DNA from: Escherichia coli
GTDB taxonomy: Bacteria > Pseudomonadota > Gammaproteobacteria > Enterobacterales > Enterobacteriaceae
DNA length: 64,000 nt
Reading direction: 5' to 3' (one strand)
NCBI RefSeq assembly: GCF_046105845.1
Contig: NZ_CP151004.1
A model generated the notes under the pieces. That model had not been told where the DNA came from. It searched no databases and saw nothing but the letters and a program-made list of their open reading frames with translations. A program made the position numbers and the translations under genes. Position 1 is the stretch's first letter. Every line of letters begins with the position of its first letter. This document shows, piece by piece, positions 19,530 to 64,000 of this stretch.

Positions 19530-20726
19530 ATGCTAAAAGTGTTATTGCTCTTTGTGTTGCTGATTGCGGGGATAGTGGTTGGCCCGATGATTGCCGGACA
19601 CCAGGGTTACGTGCTGATCCAGACCGACAACTACAATATTGAAACCAGCGTCACTGGCCTGGCGATTATTTTGATTCTGGCAATGGTAGTGCTGTTTGCC
19701 ATTGAGTGGCTACTGCGGCGGATCTTCCGCACAGGCGCACACACCCGTGGGTGGTTTGTCGGACGTAAGCGTCGCCGTGCGCGTAAGCAGACCGAACAGG
19801 CGCTGCTGAAACTAGCGGAAGGCGATTATCAGCAAGTTGAAAAGCTGATGGCGAAAAATGCCGATCACGCGGAACAACCGGTGGTGAACTATTTGCTGGC
19901 TGCCGAAGCCGCGCAACAACGTGGTGATGAAGCACGCGCCAACCAACATCTGGAACGCGCAGCGGAGCTGGCCGGCAATGACACCATTCCGGTAGAAATC
20001 ACCCGTGTACGTCTGCAACTGGCCCGTAATGAAAACCATGCTGCACGCCACGGCGTGGATAAGCTGCTGGAAGTTACGCCACGCCATCCAGAAGTATTAC
20101 GTCTGGCGGAACAGGCGTATATCCGCACAGGTGCATGGAGTTCGCTGCTGGATATCATCCCATCAATGGCGAAAGCCCATGTTGGTGATGAAGAACATCG
20201 TGCAATGCTGGAACAACAGGCATGGATTGGCCTGATGGATCAGGCGCGTGCCGATAACGGTAGCGAAGGTTTGCGTAACTGGTGGAAAAACCAAAGCCGG
20301 AAAACGCGTCATCAGGTGGCGTTGCAGGTGGCAATGGCGGAACATCTTATTGAATGTGACGATCATGATACTGCCCAGCAAATTATCATCGACGGCCTGA
20401 AACGCCAGTATGACGATCGCCTACTGCTGCCGATCCCGCGTCTGAAAACCAATAACCCGGAACAGCTGGAAAAAGTGCTGCGCCAACAGATCAAAAACGT
20501 GGGCGATCGCCCGCTGTTGTGGAGCACACTGGGTCAGTCGCTGATGAAGCACGGAGAATGGCAGGAAGCATCGCTCGCCTTCCGCGCAGCGCTGAAACAA
20601 CGTCCGGACGCCTACGATTACGCATGGCTTGCCGACGCGCTGGACAGACTGCACAAACCAGAAGAAGCTGCAGCGATGCGCCGCGACGGTTTGATGTTAA
20701 CGTTGCAGAACAACCCGCCACAGTAG
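19530..20726 (+). CDS. hemY: HemY (TPR-containing inner-membrane protein)
   Basis: 398-aa ORF starting 3 nt after the hemX stop; N-terminal TM helices. Confidence 0.9.
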   Translation: MLKVLLLFVLLIAGIVVGPMIAGHQGYVLIQTDNYNIETSVTGLAIILILAMVVLFAIEWLLRRIFRTGAHTRGWFVGRKRRRARKQTEQALLKLAEGDYQQVEKLMAKNADHAEQPVVNYLLAAEAAQQRGDEARANQHLERAAELAGNDTIPVEITRVRLQLARNENHAARHGVDKLLEVTPRHPEVLRLAEQAYIRTGAWSSLLDIIPSMAKAHVGDEEHRAMLEQQAWIGLMDQARADNGSEGLRNWWKNQSRKTRHQVALQVAMAEHLIECDDHDTAQQIIIDGLKRQYDDRLLLPIPRLKTNNPEQLEKVLRQQIKNVGDRPLLWSTLGQSLMKHGEWQEASLAFRAALKQRPDAYDYAWLADALDRLHKPEEAAAMRRDGLMLTLQNNPPQ

Positions 20727-20773
20727 TTCTTTCTCACCCGGAGGCAAGCACCTCCGGGACCTTTCTGATACAT

Positions 20774-20980
20774 AAAAAAACGCCTGCTCTTATTACGGAG
20801 CAGGCGTTAAAACAGGTCTGTATGACAACAAGTGGGTGCTTCACTCAACGTTGTGTCCATGGTGTCTGATGAGGCATAAGCGACATCTGTCAGTGGACGA
20901 TAAGCACCGTAAACGGCTCTGCGTCATTCCGGAGTTTATGAGGCACTAAGGCGAACATAAGAGATGGAATGAGCATCTAC
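20774..20980 (-). ncRNA. glmZ: Small regulatory RNA GlmZ (SraJ/RyiA)
   Basis: Minus-strand sequence GTAGATGCTCATTCCATCTCTTATGTTCGCC...CCTGCTCCGTAATAAGAGCAGGCGTTTTTTT ends in a canonical intrinsic terminator. glmZ is known to lie in the hemY-aslA intergenic region, antisense to both. Confidence 0.8.
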
Positions 20981-21404
20981 TCGTTTATTATGCCACAGAG
21001 AACCGGGAAATAACATCCCTTAACACTTGTTATGAGATAATTCTGTAATCCTCTTTGCTTCCTGAGTAATAACTTCCTGAGTGAATATTTCTCCTGCGCA
21101 CGATTCTACACATATATATAATGAATAATAAAAGTCATTCAATTAATAACATATATATTAATTGCCGTTAAAACTAAAAACAGCATCAATAATCAACGCG
21201 ATATAACATCACCGCCTTACATATCACCTGCGCCAGAGGTAGGATTGAAAACGCTCTCCTGATTTTCCAATTCATTTTCTGGATAAATAAATAATTTATT
21301 TTTATCACTATTATTTATGCAATCATCCTGTCAGGGAGAGGGATCTCAATTATCAATGCTTAATTACGTCAACATTTTGACGACATGAAACCGGAGCATT
21401 TTGC

Positions 21405-23060
21405 ATGGAATTTTCGTTTTCACCCAAACTTCTTGTTGTGGCTGTCGCCGCCGCTCTTCCACTCATGGCCAACGCAGCAGATACCCCGTCAACCGCCACC
21501 GCACGCAAAGGCTTTGCCGGATACGATCACCCAAACCAGTATCTGGTTAAACCGGCGACCACTATTGCCGACAACATGATGCCGGTGATGCAGCATCCTG
21601 CACAAGACAAAGAAACCCAGCAGAAGCTGGCAGAACTTGAGAAAAAAACCGGTAAGAAACCGAACGTGGTTGTTTTCTTGCTGGATGATGTGGGCTGGAT
21701 GGATGTTGGCTTTAACGGCGGCGGCGTGGCGGTGGGTAACCCTACACCAGATATCGACGCCGTTGCCAGCCAGGGGCTGATTTTAACTTCGGCGTATTCT
21801 CAACCGAGTTCTTCCCCAACCCGCGCCACGATTCTTACCGGGCAATACTCCATCCACCACGGCATTCTGATGCCGCCAATGTACGGGCAACCGGGCGGTC
21901 TGCAAGGGTTAACCACTCTGCCGCAGTTGCTGCACGATCAGGGCTACGTCACTCAGGCCATCGGGAAATGGCATATGGGGGAAAACAAAGAGTCGCAGCC
22001 GCAGAACGTTGGCTTTGATGATTTCCGCGGTTTTAACTCGGTATCCGATATGTATACCGAATGGCGTGATGTTCACGTCAACCCGGAAGTCGCCCTGAGC
22101 CCGGATCGTTCTGAATACATCCAAAAACTGCCGTTCAGCAAAGATGACGTTCATGCCGTGCGCGGCGGTGAACAGGAAGCCATTGCCGACATTACGCCGA
22201 AATATATGGAAGACCTGGATCAACGCTGGATGGAATATGGCGTTAAGTTCCTCGACAAGATGGCGAAGAGCGATAAGCCTTTCTTCCTCTACTACGGCAC
22301 TCGCGGCTGTCACTTCGATAACTACCCAAATGCGAAATATGCGGGTAGCTCTCCGGCGCGCACCTCTTACGGCGACTGCATGGTGGAGATGAACGATATC
22401 TTCGCCAATCTGTATAAAGCACTGGAGAAAAACGGTCAGCTTGATAACACGCTGATTGTGTTCACCTCTGATAACGGTCCGGAAGCCGAAGTTCCGCCGC
22501 ACGGTCGCACACCGTTCCGCGGTGCGAAAGGTTCTACATGGGAAGGCGGCGTTCGTGTGCCAACCTTCGTTTACTGGAAAGGCATGATCCAACCGCGTAA
22601 ATCTGACGGTATTGTCGATCTGGCGGATCTCTTCCCAACCGCGCTGGATCTGGCGGGGCATCCTGGAGCGAAAGTGGCGAATTTAGTGCCGAAAACCACC
22701 TTTATCGATGGTGTGGACCAGACATCCTTCTTCCTGGGAACAAATGGTCAGTCTAACCGTAAGGCCGAGCACTACTTCCTCAACGGCAAACTTTCTGCTG
22801 TGCGTATGGATGAGTTCAAGTATCACGTCCTGATCCAGCAACCGTACGCGTATACCCAGAGCGGGTATCAGGGTGGATTCACCGGTACAGTAATGCAAAC
22901 GGCGGGATCGTCGGTGTTTAACCTGTACACCGATCCGCAGGAAAGCGACTCCATCGGCGTGCGCCATATCCCAATGGGTGTACCGCTACAGACCGAAATG
23001 CATGCGTATATGGAGATCCTGAAAAAATATCCACCACGCGCGCAGATTAAATCTGATTAA
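21405..23060 (+). CDS. aslA: Arylsulfatase-family (putative sulfatase) periplasmic protein
   Basis: 551-aa ORF with signal peptide [24 protein letters not shown] and sulfatase-type motifs (LLDDVGWMD; [11 protein letters not shown] as the C/S-x-P-x-R FGly site with Ser). Confidence 0.9.
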
Positions 23061-24542: not shown

Positions 24543-24619
24543 TGGTCGGCGAGAGAGGATTCGAACCTCCGACCCACTGGTCCCAAACCAGTTGCGCTAC
24601 CAAGCTGCGCTACTCGCCG
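24543..24619 (-). tRNA. proM: tRNA-Pro
   Basis: Reverse complement reads CGGCGAGTAGCGCAGCTTGGTAGCGCAACTGGTTTGGGACCAGTGGGTCGGAGGTTCGAATCCTCTCTCGCCGACCA (77 nt, anticodon UGG, encoded CCA). Confidence 0.95.
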
Positions 24620-24661
24620 AAATACTGCTTTTTGAATTTTTAGTTCAATTCTTTAAAGTCG

Positions 24662-24748
24662 TGGTGCGAGGGGGGGGACTTGAACCCCCACGTCCGTAAG
24701 GACACTAACACCTGAAGCTAGCGCGTCTACCAATTCCGCCACCTTCGC
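24662..24748 (-). tRNA. leuT: tRNA-Leu
   Basis: Reverse complement reads GCGAAGGTGGCGGAATTGGTAGACGCGCTAGCTTCAGGTGTTAGTGTCCTTACGGACGTGGGGGTTCAAGTCCCCCCCCTCGCACCA (87 nt, anticodon CAG, long variable arm). Confidence 0.95.
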
Positions 24749-24768
24749 ATTGTCACAACTTCTAATAA

Positions 24769-24845
24769 TGGGGTGGCTAATGGGATTCGAACCCACGACA
24801 ACTGGAATCACAATCCAGGGCTCTACCAACTGAGCTATAGCCACC
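24769..24845 (-). tRNA. hisR: tRNA-His
   Basis: Reverse complement reads GGTGGCTATAGCTCAGTTGGTAGAGCCCTGGATTGTGATTCCAGTTGTCGTGGGTTCGAATCCCATTAGCCACCCCA (anticodon GUG, extra 5' G). Confidence 0.95.
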
Positions 24846-24902
24846 ACTACAAATCTTGTTACGCGGTATTACTACCACCGCAGCTCAAGCGCCGGGACTA
24901 AA

Positions 24903-24979
<77 letters not shown>

Positions 24980-41263: not shown

Positions 41264-41593
41264 TTACGCCAGGTTAGCGTCGAGGAACTCTTTCAACTGA
41301 CCTTTAGACAGTGCGCCCACTTTGGTTGCCGCCACTTCACCGTTTTTGAACAGCAGCAGAGTCGGGATACCACGGATACCATATTTCGGCGCAGTGCCAG
41401 GGTTTTGATCGATGTTCAGTTTTGCAACGGTCAGTTTGCCCTGATATTCGTCAGCGATTTCATCCAGAATCGGGGCGATCATTTTGCACGGACCGCACCA
41501 CTCTGCCCAGAAATCGACGAGGATCGCCCCGTCCGCTTTGAGTACATCCGTGTCAAAACTGTCGTCAGTCAGGTGAATAATTTTATCGCTCAT
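41264..41593 (-). CDS. trxA: Thioredoxin 1
   Basis: ORF 41264..41698 begins at a TTG; ATG at 41591-41593 gives the 109-aa protein [41 protein letters not shown]... (WCGPC active site). Confidence 0.95.
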
Positions 41594-41723
41594 ATATAAC
41601 TCCACAGGAATAAGCCTGGCGTGTTGGTTTCGTTGTTGGTGTAACATTAACCAACTAAAGGTTGACTTTATTTCACCGGATACGCTTTCGTAAAGCAATA
41701 GTAAGCTGATATTCTACCACACT

Positions 41724-59437: not shown

Positions 59438-59513
59438 GGATGATTTCTGGCAGGGGCGGAGAGACTCGAACTCCCAACACCCGGTTTTGGAGACCGGTGC
59501 TCTACCAATTGAA
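59438..59513 (-). tRNA. trpT: tRNA-Trp
   Basis: Reverse complement reads AGGGGCGTAGTTCAATTGGTAGAGCACCGGTCTCCAAAACCGGGTGTTGGGAGTTCGAGTCTCTCCGCCCCTGCCA (anticodon CCA). Confidence 0.95.
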
Positions 59514-59531
59514 CTACGCCCCTAATTAGGG

Positions 59532-59608
59532 TGGCGGAACGGACGGGACTCGAACCCGCGACCCCCTGCGTGACAGGCAGGTATTCTAACCGACTGAACT
59601 ACCGCTCC
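59532..59608 (-). tRNA. aspT: tRNA-Asp
   Basis: Reverse complement reads GGAGCGGTAGTTCAGTCGGTTAGAATACCTGCCTGTCACGCAGGGGGTCGCGGGTTCGAGTCCCGTCCGTTCCGCCA (anticodon GUC). Confidence 0.95.
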
Positions 59609-59660
59609 ACCGAATTCTTTTACAACCACCGGTTTTATGACCGGCTTACTGCTTAATTTG

Positions 59661-59780
59661 ATGCCTGGCAGTTCCCTACTCTCGCATGGGGAGACCCCAC
59701 ACTACCATCGGCGCTACGGCGTTTCACTTCTGAGTTCGGCATGGGGTCAGGTGGGACCACCGCGCTACGGCCGCCAGGCA
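59661..59780 (-). rRNA. rrfC: 5S ribosomal RNA
   Basis: 120 nt; reverse complement begins TGCCTGGCGGCCGTAGCGCGGTGGTCCCACCTGACCCCATGCCGAACTCAG and ends ...AGGGAACTGCCAGGCAT. Confidence 0.95.
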
Positions 59781-59871
59781 AATTCTGTTTATCAGACCGC
59801 TTCTGCGTTCTGATTTAATCTGTATCAGGCTGAAAATCTTCTCTCATCCGCCAAAACATCTTCGGCGTTGT

Positions 59872-62776
<2,905 letters not shown>

Positions 62777-62969
62777 TCACAACCCGAAGATGTTTCTTTC
62801 GACTCATCATCGTGTTGCGAAAATTTGAGAGACTCACGAACAACTTTCGTTGTTCAGTGTTTCAATTTTCAGCTTGATCCAGATTTTTAAAGAGCAAATA
62901 TCTCAAACATCACCCGAAGATGAGTTTTGAGATATTAAGGCAGGTGACTTTCACTCACAAACCAGCAAG

Positions 62970-63045
62970 TGGCGTCCCCTAGGGGATTCGAACCCCTGTT
63001 ACCGCCGTGAAAGGGCGGTGTCCTGGGCCTCTAGACGAAGGGGAC
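62970..63045 (-). tRNA. gltU: tRNA-Glu (16S-23S spacer tRNA)
   Basis: Reverse complement reads GTCCCCTTCGTCTAGAGGCCCAGGACACCGCCCTTTCACGGCGGTAACAGGGGTTCGAATCCCCTAGGGGACGCCA (anticodon UUC). Confidence 0.95.
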
Positions 63046-63130
63046 GTATCAGTCTGCTTCGCAAGACGCCTTGCTTTTCACTTTCTATCAGACAATCTGT
63101 GTGAGCACTGCAAAGTACGCTTCTTTAAGG

Positions 63131-64000
<870 letters not shown>

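What the first reader, a model, noticed from the sequence alone, without database searches (positions are those of the whole stretch)
20768..21060. GlmZ sRNA encoded antisense in the hemY-aslA intergenic region, with a shared terminator
The minus strand carries a ~207-nt transcript unit ending in a strong intrinsic terminator (GCCTGCTC-CGTAATAA-GAGCAGGCG + U7) and matching my recollection of GlmZ, the sRNA that activates glmS translation and is controlled by RapZ and GlmY. It is absent from the ORF track, so it would be missed by protein-centric annotation. The same hairpin has an A-run on its other side and could also terminate hemCDXY read-through. The region upstream of the 5' end (20981..21060) should hold the glmZ promoter.
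Basis: partly seen in the sequence, partly recalled or inferred. Interest (0 to 1): 0.35.

Follow-up and report, generated by a model that had tools for sequence, protein, structure and literature searches.

The report
Known small RNA gene glmZ
This is the well-studied E. coli small RNA GlmZ, which switches on the cell-wall precursor enzyme GlmS; it is identical to the reference copy, and the suggested terminator sharing with the neighbouring hemY gene is not supported.

Summary
The minus strand at 20774..20980 encodes GlmZ (SraJ/RyiA). It matches Rfam RF00083 end to end at 218.4 bits (threshold 60) and is 100% identical to the 207 nt of E. coli K-12 glmZ. It is at least 99% identical in 5424 of 5426 complete E. 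coli genomes.

All expected parts are present:
- Stem-loops SL1 and SL2.
- A 26-nt single-stranded region carrying the two glmS-pairing boxes.
- A terminator hairpin followed by U7.
- An extended -10 sigma-70 promoter (TG-n-CATAAT) just upstream of +1.

85 homologues from other Enterobacterales support the fold through compensatory changes. Wherever a downstream HemY match was found (85 loci), hemY lies convergent to glmZ.

The "shared terminator" idea is not supported:
- In the hemY sense the hairpin is followed by UUAAAACA, with no U-tract. This holds in 78 of 78 species checked.
- hemY has its own stem-loop at 20737..20758.
- Published K-12 Term-seq places the hemY 3' end at the equivalent of window 20765, with 8 nt separating it from the glmZ 3' end.
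- Residual read-through falls in a mapped Rho-dependent termination region.

Verdict: already known, ordinary, low interest.

The parts
20774..20980 (-). glmZ gene: primary 207-nt GlmZ sRNA (+1 = G at 20980, 3' end = last U of U7 at 20774)
   Evidence: Rfam RF00083, model 1-214/214, 218.4 bits. 100% identical to K-12 3986432..3986638. Literature gives a 207-nt primary transcript (PMC4152352).
20916..20980 (-). SL1 (GlmZ nt 1-65), the 5' stem-loop
   Evidence: Rfam consensus-structure alignment. MFE and centroid fold. Compensatory changes at alignment pairs 13-70 (UA 71 / CG 14) and 14-69 (CG 81 / UA 4) in 85 homologues.
20835..20908 (-). SL2 (nt 73-146), the central stem-loop. The literature identifies it as the RapZ-binding module that licenses RNase E cleavage.
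   Evidence: Basal stem GGUGCUU/AAGCACC read from the sequence. Rfam alignment. Compensatory changes at pairs 99-178 (UA 56 / CG 29), 96-181 and 105-162. The RapZ/RNase E role comes from PMC4737144 and was not tested here.
20809..20834 (-). Single-stranded region (nt 147-172, 26 nt: CACUUGUUGUCAUACAGACCUGUUUU). It carries the glmS-pairing boxes UUGUUGUC (20831..20824) and GACCUGU (20818..20812) and the RNase E cleavage site.
   Evidence: Sequence. Complementary to K-12 glmS leader -41..-22, ACAGGU-UGACC-GACAACG. The 26-nt length matches PMC4737144. K-12 Term-seq internal 3' ends at GlmZ nt 152 and 154 correspond to window 20829 and 20827.
20774..20808 (-). SL3 intrinsic terminator: stem-loop 20808..20779 plus the U7 tail 20780..20774. 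The tail is also an Hfq contact according to the literature.
   Evidence: Terminator scan. Six of nine stem pairs show compensatory changes across 85 homologues. A T6-9 tail is present in 78/78 loci. K-12 DirectRNA-seq coverage falls from 1924 to 30 across this point on the glmZ strand (PMC7815308 supp. 2).
20987..21016 (-). glmZ sigma-70 promoter: -10 CATAAT (20992..20987), extended -10 TG (20995..20994), weak -35 ATGTTA (21016..21011, 18-nt spacer)
   Evidence: Sequence. No sigma-54 motif, unlike 78/90 homologous loci, which have TGGCnn-N5-nTGCw at -27. Published deletion and mutation analysis in K-12 (PMC3045617). The assignment of the -35 hexamer is my inference. One spacer SNP (G versus A at -23) relative to K-12.
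20737..20765 (+). hemY's own terminator or 3'-end stem-loop, CCCGGAGG-CAAGCA-CCUCCGGG (20737..20758), plus the tail ACCUUUC ending at 20765
   Evidence: RNAfold -16.9 kcal/mol. The K-12 Term-seq 'primary' hemY 3' end at 3986647(-) maps to window 20765. Analogous separate hairpins follow hemY in most other species.
19530..20726 (+). hemY CDS (context; convergent with glmZ)
   Evidence: ORF list. RefSeq annotation. Convergent in 85/85 homologous loci with a HemY match.
21405..23060 (+). aslA CDS (context; divergent from glmZ across a 424-bp spacer of 34% GC)
   Evidence: ORF list. RefSeq annotation. GC content.

Best explanation
Window 20774..20980 (minus strand) is the glmZ gene. It encodes the 207-nt Hfq-dependent small RNA GlmZ.

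Transcription and fold. The gene is transcribed from a constitutive sigma-70 promoter with an extended -10 element and terminated at its own SL3 hairpin plus U7. The RNA folds into SL1, SL2, a 26-nt single-stranded region and SL3.

Activation of glmS. The two boxes UUGUUGUC and GACCUGU in the single-stranded region pair with the glmS leader around -41..-22. This opens an inhibitory hairpin that hides the glmS ribosome-binding site, so GlmS (glucosamine-6-phosphate synthase) is made.

Inactivation. When GlcN6P is plentiful, RapZ binds SL2 and presents GlmZ to RNase E. RNase E cuts inside the pairing region at about nt 152-154 and inactivates the sRNA. When GlcN6P is scarce, the decoy sRNA GlmY sequesters RapZ and full-length GlmZ accumulates.

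What is shown here: family membership, identity to the K-12 gene, the structure with covariation, the pairing complementarity, promoter type, terminator and synteny. What is taken from the literature on the identical K-12 sequence: the RapZ, RNase E, Hfq and GlmY steps.

hemY. The convergent hemCDXY operon ends at its own stem-loop (20737..20758, 3' end near 20765) and does not use the glmZ hairpin as its main terminator.
For: - Rfam GlmZ_SraJ full-length hit at 218.4 bits against a gathering score of 60, E = 3.4e-56. It was kept as best of clan CL00011.
- 100% identity over 207 nt to K-12 MG1655, where ncRNA glmZ b4456 is annotated.
- At least 99% identity in 5424/5426 E. coli genomes, while the 901-bp surrounding region is mostly 95-99% identical.
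- MFE z-score of -3.3.
- 85 non-identical homologues: 43 consensus pairs, 12 with compensatory changes and almost no broken pairs.
- All 92 unique homologues start with GTAGATGCUCAU.
- hemY is convergent in 85/85 loci.
- Two-box complementarity to the glmS leader. That leader is at least 95% conserved in 5424/5426 genomes.
- The promoter elements are in place and the sigma-54 motif is absent, in agreement with PMC3045617.
- K-12 Term-seq shows internal 3' ends at nt 152/154 and the hemY 3' end just outside glmZ.
- The mechanism is described in PMC4152352, PMC4737144, PMC7430671 and PMC7073468.
Against: - Nothing contradicts the identification.
- Expression, processing and glmS activation were not measured in the strain the window comes from.
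- glmS, glmY, rapZ, hfq and rne lie outside the window and were not checked for this genome.
- My duplex-energy calculations did not single out the pairing site statistically once intramolecular structure is ignored. Some structured GlmY windows scored as well or better. The pairing evidence is therefore direct complementarity plus the literature.
- The generic promoter scan did not call the glmZ promoter, because its -35 has only 3 of 6 matches.
- The 85-homologue set was retrieved with an exact pattern inside SL2, so conservation there is partly by construction.
Confidence: 0.97

Rival explanations
1. The SL3 hairpin is a bidirectional terminator that is shared: it also terminates hemCDXY transcription coming from the + strand.
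For: - The hairpin is a strong, nearly perfect palindrome-like stem on either strand.
- It lies only 47 nt beyond the hemY stop codon.
- K-12 DirectRNA-seq with and without bicyclomycin puts the peak of a Rho termination region at 3986596(-), which is window 20816. That is just past the hairpin in the hemY sense, so some read-through reaches and ends around it.
- In 8 other species the hemY-glmZ gap is only 9-19 nt with no separate hairpin.
Against: - In the hemY sense the hairpin is followed by UUAAAACAGG. Only 1-3 T occur in the first 8 nt, in the window and in 78/78 homologues.
- No + strand terminator is called by the scan.
- hemY has its own -16.9 kcal/mol stem-loop at 20737..20758.
- The curated K-12 Term-seq 'primary' hemY 3' end, 3986647(-), sits 7 nt after that stem-loop and does not overlap glmZ. 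The coordinate prefix occurs three times in a file that has three growth-condition tabs.
- No curated hemY-sense 3' end was found in the 3986590-3986609 or 3986630-3986639 ranges of that table.
- The downstream event is Rho-dependent (score 10.3), not intrinsic.
Confidence: 0.08
2. The element is the paralogous decoy sRNA GlmY rather than GlmZ.
For: GlmY and GlmZ share SL1/SL2 sequence. My pairwise alignment gives 76% mean column identity. Both belong to Rfam clan CL00011.
Against: - The best clan member reported is GlmZ_SraJ, with full-length coverage.
- K-12 glmY lies elsewhere, between glrK and purL.
- GlmY is 184 nt and lacks the UUGUUGUC/GACCUGU boxes.
- This locus is hemY-linked, as glmZ is in 85/85 species.
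Confidence: 0.01
3. The region encodes a small protein rather than an RNA. Candidates are the mechanical ORFs 20519..20869 (+, 116 aa) or 20618..20773 (-, 51 aa).
For: These ORFs appear in the six-frame list. A few RefSeq genomes place a 'hypothetical protein' CDS touching the match.
Against: - The + ORF is an out-of-frame overlap of hemY's 3' end running into the spacer. The 51-aa ORF lies downstream of the glmZ terminator, inside hemY antisense.
- Conservation across genera follows RNA pairing, with compensatory changes and indels in loops, and not a reading frame.
- The CDS seen overlaps the glmZ match by only 2 nt.
Confidence: 0.01

Closest known systems
GlmZ (SraJ / RyiA / k19), E. coli K-12 b4456, Rfam RF00083
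   Same: Identical 207-nt sequence. Same neighbours (hemY convergent, aslA divergent). Same extended -10 sigma-70 promoter, the same 26-nt single-stranded region with the glmS-pairing boxes, and the same SL3-U7 terminator.
   Different: One SNP in the promoter spacer (G instead of A at about -23) and a few SNPs in the flanks. The K-12 RefSeq feature is drawn as 172 nt and stops before SL3, whereas the primary transcript is 207 nt (PMC4152352).
GlmY (SroF / Tke1), E. coli K-12 b4441, Rfam clan CL00011
   Same: Homologous SL1 and SL2 modules (76% mean column identity in my alignment). Binds RapZ according to the literature.
   Different: 184 nt with a 12-nt single-stranded region and no complementarity to glmS. 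Not cut by RNase E and acts as a RapZ decoy. [quoted passage not shown]
GlmZ of Salmonella, Yersinia and most other Enterobacterales
   Same: Same 5' end (GUAGAUGCUCAU), same three-stem-loop architecture and the same convergent hemY.
   Different: 78/90 loci carry a sigma-54 promoter motif (TGGCnn-N5-nTGCw) starting at -27. Published work on Salmonella and Yersinia shows GlrR/QseF-dependent control there (PMC3045617). The window, like E. albertii and another Escherichia, has none. The stem sequences of SL3 and the length of the spacer before it also differ.
Bidirectional intrinsic terminators between convergent genes
   Same: A single G+C-rich hairpin lies between two convergent transcription units.
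   Different: True bidirectional terminators have an A-tract 5' and a U-tract 3' of the stem, so both strands see a U-tract. Here only the glmZ strand does (U7 against UUAAAA), and hemY has a separate stem-loop and a mapped 3' end.

Membership tests
GlmZ_SraJ (Rfam RF00083) | Covariance-model score at or above the curated gathering threshold over the full model | tested here: met
   218.4 bits against GA 60, model 1-214/214, E = 3.4e-56, not truncated.
GlmZ_SraJ (Rfam RF00083) | Three stem-loops (SL1, SL2 with lateral bulge, SL3 terminator) supported by covariation | tested here: met
   CM structure alignment. MFE fold z = -3.3. 12 of 43 consensus pairs show compensatory changes in 85 homologues, located in SL1, SL2 and SL3.
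GlmZ_SraJ (Rfam RF00083) | Single-stranded region between SL2 and SL3 that is complementary to the glmS leader. This distinguishes GlmZ from GlmY. | tested here: met
   26-nt SSR CACUUGUUGUCAUACAGACCUGUUUU. The boxes pair with K-12 glmS -41..-22. The leader is conserved in 5424/5426 E. coli genomes. GlmY lacks the boxes. Energy statistics alone were inconclusive.
GlmZ_SraJ (Rfam RF00083) | Rho-independent terminator with a 3' oligo(U) tail (Hfq contact) | tested here: met
   11-pair stem plus T7. T6-9 in 78/78 homologues. Hfq binding itself was not testable.
GlmZ_SraJ (Rfam RF00083) | Genomic context: convergent with the hemCDXY cluster | tested here: met
   hemY 19530..20726 (+) against glmZ (-) in the window. 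Convergent in 85/85 loci with a HemY match. Stated in PMC3045617.
GlmZ_SraJ (Rfam RF00083) | RapZ-dependent RNase E cleavage in the pairing region, giving a species of about 151-155 nt | not testable with these tools
   Published K-12 Term-seq on the identical sequence shows 3' ends at nt 152 and 154. The mechanism comes from PMC4737144 and PMC7430671.
GlmZ_SraJ (Rfam RF00083) | Activates glmS translation in vivo | not testable with these tools
   Known for the identical K-12 RNA (PMC4152352).
E. coli-type (group III) glmZ promoter | A single sigma-70 promoter, with no sigma-54 -24/-12 motif and no GlrR sites | tested here: met
   TG-n-CATAAT at -15..-7. No TGGCnn-N5-nTGCw in the 70 nt upstream, whereas 78/90 other loci have it at -27. 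Agrees with PMC3045617. GlrR sites were not scanned separately.
Bidirectional intrinsic terminator | A U-tract immediately 3' of the hairpin on both strands | tested here: not met
   glmZ strand: U7. hemY strand: UUAAAACA, with 2 T in 8 nt. 1-3 T in 78/78 homologues. The scan calls no + strand terminator.
Bidirectional intrinsic terminator | Mapped 3' ends of both convergent transcripts at the same hairpin | tested here: not met
   The hemY primary 3' end in K-12 is at 3986647(-), which is window 20765, after hemY's own stem-loop. 8 nt separate it from the glmZ 3' end.

The most novel reading that the evidence does not exclude
hemCDXY transcripts that escape hemY's own stem-loop run antisense across GlmZ's SL3 and glmS-pairing region before Rho stops them. 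The Rho-region peak is equivalent to window 20816. Convergent transcription or the resulting antisense RNA could therefore tune GlmZ output, coupling haem-operon transcription to amino-sugar control. The effect would be stronger in the 8 species where hemY ends only 9-19 nt from glmZ and has no hairpin of its own.
Probability: 0.06. Interest if true: 0.35.

Novelty: already known. Interest (0 to 1): 0.06.

Why it matters
As a discovery it matters little. GlmZ has been characterised since 2001-2007, and its mechanism, including a RapZ/RNase E complex structure, is well described. The practical value is for annotation. NCBI's automatic pipeline leaves this gene unannotated in almost every E. coli genome, and the K-12 reference feature is 35 nt too short at the 3' end, so RNA-aware scanning is needed to recover it. 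The check also corrects a plausible but wrong inference. The glmZ hairpin is not a shared terminator: hemY has its own 3' stem-loop, and Rho acts as the back-up.

Tried and rejected
- RNAduplex of full-length GlmZ against the glmU-glmS spacer gave a meaningless whole-molecule duplex that scored worse than shuffles.
- Restricting the duplex to the single-stranded region recovered the known two-box pairing (13 of 1000 shuffles as good). However, sliding windows of GlmY scored as well or better, so duplex energy is not a discriminating test.
- The generic sigma-70 scan did not find the glmZ promoter, because the -35 has 3 of 6 matches. It only called two weak sites near 21307-21349, which I do not interpret.
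- A literature search for 'bidirectional terminator' together with glmZ found only an unrelated plasmid terminator.
- PMC2377431 mentions the hemY-aslA location but nothing on hemY termination.
- My exact-stem hairpin finder missed 15 loci whose SL3 contains G-U pairs. Those loci are excluded from the 78-locus U-tract count.
- Some hemY-glmZ gap lengths above 400 nt may reflect inserted DNA or poor C-terminal alignment and were not examined.

Full report
**Observation**

A unit starts at GUAGAUGCUCAU (20980) and ends with AACGCCUGCUC-CGUAAUAA-GAGCAGGCGUU followed by U7 (hairpin 20808..20779, last U at 20774). The terminator scan of 20400..21600 calls this hairpin, with 11 pairs, 7 of them G-C, and an 8-nt loop. 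It calls no terminator on the + strand. The 207 nt fold at -60.8 kcal/mol against -46.9 +/- 4.2 for dinucleotide shuffles, z = -3.3.

**Identity**

- An Rfam scan of the whole window gives GlmZ_SraJ (RF00083) at 20774..20980 on the minus strand. The match covers model positions 1-214 of 214 at 218.4 bits against a gathering score of 60, E = 3.4e-56, and is kept as the best member of its clan.
- The window is E. coli. The 901 bp around the site match 5425 of 5426 complete E. coli genomes, and several are 100% identical.
- The 207 nt are 100% identical to K-12 MG1655 3986432..3986638. The curated K-12 record annotates ncRNA glmZ, b4456.
- The gene is at least 99% identical in 5424 of 5426 genomes. 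The surrounding 901 bp are mostly only 95-99% identical, so the gene is under tighter constraint than its flanks.
- The flanking genes are hemY (19530..20726, +) and aslA (21405..23060, +).

**Annotation remark**

PGAP-annotated RefSeq genomes list no feature under the match. The K-12 feature is drawn as 172 nt and stops before the terminator hairpin. The literature gives a 207-nt primary transcript and a processed form of about 151 nt (PMC4152352).

**Anatomy**

GlmZ nt n corresponds to window position 20981 - n.

| Part | GlmZ nt | Window | Note |
|---|---|---|---|
| SL1 | 1-65 | 20916..20980 | 5' stem-loop |
| SL2 | 73-146 | 20835..20908 | closed by GGUGCUU/AAGCACC |
| Single-stranded region | 147-172 | 20809..20834 | 26 nt |
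| SL3 | 173-202 | 20779..20808 | terminator stem-loop |
| U7 tail | 201-207 | 20774..20780 | first two U can extend the stem |

- The single-stranded region reads CACUUGUUGUCAUACAGACCUGUUUU. Its 26 nt is exactly the length reported for GlmZ in PMC4737144.
- Its boxes UUGUUGUC and GACCUGU are complementary to GACAACG and ACAGGU in the K-12 glmS leader at -41..-22.
- That leader is at least 95% identical in 5424 of 5426 E. coli genomes.
- The paralogue GlmY (K-12 2691157..2691340) aligns well in SL1 and SL2 but lacks these boxes.
- Duplex-energy statistics were not discriminating. The pairing evidence is therefore the visible complementarity plus published work.

**Comparative evidence**

One pattern scan of the species-representative genome collection returned 120 loci.

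- 92 of them carry unique GlmZ homologues from Escherichia, Salmonella, Citrobacter, Enterobacter, Serratia, Yersinia, Pectobacterium, Proteus, Providencia and other genera. All begin with GUAGAUGCUCAU.
- An 85-sequence alignment gives a consensus fold of 43 pairs. 12 of these show compensatory double changes and almost none are broken.
- The changes fall in SL1 (for example UA 71 / CG 14), the SL2 basal stem (UA 56 / CG 29) and six of nine SL3 pairs.
- hemY lies convergent downstream in all 85 loci where a HemY match was found. This agrees with PMC3045617.
- One caveat applies. The set was retrieved with an exact 16-base pattern inside SL2, so invariance there is by construction.

**Promoter**

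- Upstream of +1 the window has CATAAT at -12..-7 (20992..20987) and TG at -15/-14 (20995..20994), which make an extended -10.
- A weak -35 candidate, ATGTTA, lies at 21016..21011 with an 18-nt spacer.
- The generic scan missed the promoter because of that weak -35.
- Across 90 homologous loci, 78 have a sigma-54 motif TGGCnn-N5-nTGCw starting exactly at -27. The window, E. albertii, a second Escherichia and nine others do not.
- This matches the published finding that E. coli glmZ has a single constitutive sigma-70 promoter contained in -40..+1 and is not bound by GlrR (PMC3045617).
- Relative to K-12 there is one SNP, in the spacer at about -23.

**The 'shared terminator' claim**

This part fails on three independent grounds.

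1. No U-tract on the hemY side. In the hemY sense the hairpin is followed by UUAAAACAGG. The first 8 nt contain 2 T in the window and 1-3 T in all 78 loci with an exactly located stem, while the glmZ strand always has T6-9.
2. hemY has its own stem-loop. It reads CCCGGAGG-CAAGCA-CCUCCGGG at 20737..20758 (-16.9 kcal/mol) and is followed by ACCUUUCUGA. Most other species with a gap of at least 34 nt also have a separate hairpin after hemY, often with a clear U-tract.
3. Published 3'-end mapping disagrees with sharing. In K-12 (Adams et al. 2021, PMC7815308, supplementary file 1) a 'primary' hemY 3' end is listed at 3986647(-). I mapped this to window 20765, 7 nt after hemY's stem-loop, with 8 nt separating it from the glmZ 3' end at 20774. 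The coordinate prefix occurs three times in a file that has three growth-condition tabs.

The same data list GlmZ-internal 3' ends at 3986583 and 3986585, which are nt 152 and 154. That is the expected RNase E product.

Supplementary file 2 of that paper adds two points.

- It lists a Rho termination region whose peak is at 3986596(-), equivalent to window 20816 and antisense to glmZ, with Rho score 10.3. Read-through past hemY's hairpin is therefore stopped by Rho rather than intrinsically.
- On the glmZ strand, coverage drops from 1924 to 30 across the terminator.

**Mechanism**

Shown here:
- Family membership and identity to the K-12 gene.
- The structure, with covariation support.
- Complementarity to the glmS leader.
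- Promoter type, terminator and synteny.

Taken from the literature on the identical K-12 RNA (PMC4152352, PMC4737144, PMC7430671, PMC7073468):
- RapZ binds SL2 and recruits RNase E, which cuts in the pairing region when GlcN6P is ample.
- GlmY sequesters RapZ when GlcN6P is scarce.

**Verdict**

This is an already known gene with a textbook mechanism, identical to the reference. Interest is low.

The only mildly open point is whether convergent hemY read-through, terminated by Rho within antisense glmZ, has any effect on GlmZ. This would matter most in the eight species where hemY ends 9-19 nt from glmZ without a hairpin of its own.

Noticed in passing
window 20737-20765 (+): hemY has its own 8-bp G+C-rich stem-loop (CCCGGAGG-CAAGCA-CCTCCGGG, -16.9 kcal/mol) with a weak U-rich tail. 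K-12 Term-seq puts the hemY 3' end 7 nt after it. The generic terminator scan misses it because the tail has only 4 T in 8 nt.
   Followed up: yes
window 20809-20834 region, + strand (K-12 3986596(-) = window 20816): Published data with and without bicyclomycin place the peak of a Rho-dependent termination region (score 10.3) on the hemY-sense strand inside antisense glmZ. Some transcription therefore runs antisense across GlmZ's 3' domain before Rho stops it.
   Followed up: partly
window 21058-21067 and 21073-21082 (minus strand): A perfect 10-nt direct repeat, ACTCAGGAAG, occurs twice, 15 nt apart, at -87 and -102 from the glmZ start. It lies in the 424-bp glmZ-aslA spacer of 34% GC and is conserved in K-12. 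It falls outside the region needed for glmZ promoter activity, and its function is unknown. It could be a regulator site for aslA.
   Followed up: no
L017, L019, L023, L106, L120, L088, L012, L055 (hemY-glmZ junctions): In eight other Enterobacterales species the hemY stop codon is only 9-19 nt from the glmZ 3' end, with no separate hairpin. There hemY transcripts must enter the glmZ terminator, although it has no U-tract in that direction.
   Followed up: partly
L006-L125, 70 nt upstream of each glmZ: 78 of 90 glmZ loci carry a sigma-54 promoter motif (TGGCnn-N5-nTGCw) starting exactly at -27. 41 of these also have a good -10-like hexamer. The window, E. albertii and 10 others lack the motif.
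   Followed up: yes
L025, L036, L038, L048, L062, L063, L067, L086, L092, L093, L097 (Proteus, Providencia, Morganella, Moellerella): These GlmZ homologues lack the first glmS-pairing box UGUUGUC (they read ..CACCAUCCGUCUGUAGACCUG..) and keep only AGACCUG. Whether their glmS leaders changed in step was not examined.
   Followed up: no
L016, L032, L066, L103, L110, L118, L123 (Yersinia): Yersinia GlmZ carries an insertion of about 15 nt in the apical part of SL1 (for example GGUUUUUAUAGCCAA) that itself looks like a small extra hairpin.
   Followed up: no
K-12 NC_000913.3 3986432-3986603 (L002:1933-2104): The curated K-12 glmZ feature is 172 nt and ends before the terminator hairpin, 35 nt short of the 207-nt primary transcript. 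PGAP genomes have no feature at all, and in a few a 'hypothetical protein' CDS touches the gene.
   Followed up: partly
window 55940-56229 (-): An Rfam Rev39_5p_UTR hit (157 bits) lies immediately upstream of a 548-aa ORF at 54274-55920 (-). By map position this is probably the ilv leader/attenuator in front of an intact ilvG, which is frameshifted in K-12.
   Followed up: partly
window 41564-41663 (-); 62784-62892 (-); 59451-64000 (-); 24546-24979 (-): Other RNA features in the window are a TrxA 5'-UTR thermometer hit, a StyR-44 hit inside an rRNA operon, and an rrn operon (16S cut by the window end, tRNA, 23S, 5S, two tRNAs). There is also a cluster of four tRNA genes next to aslB.
   Followed up: no
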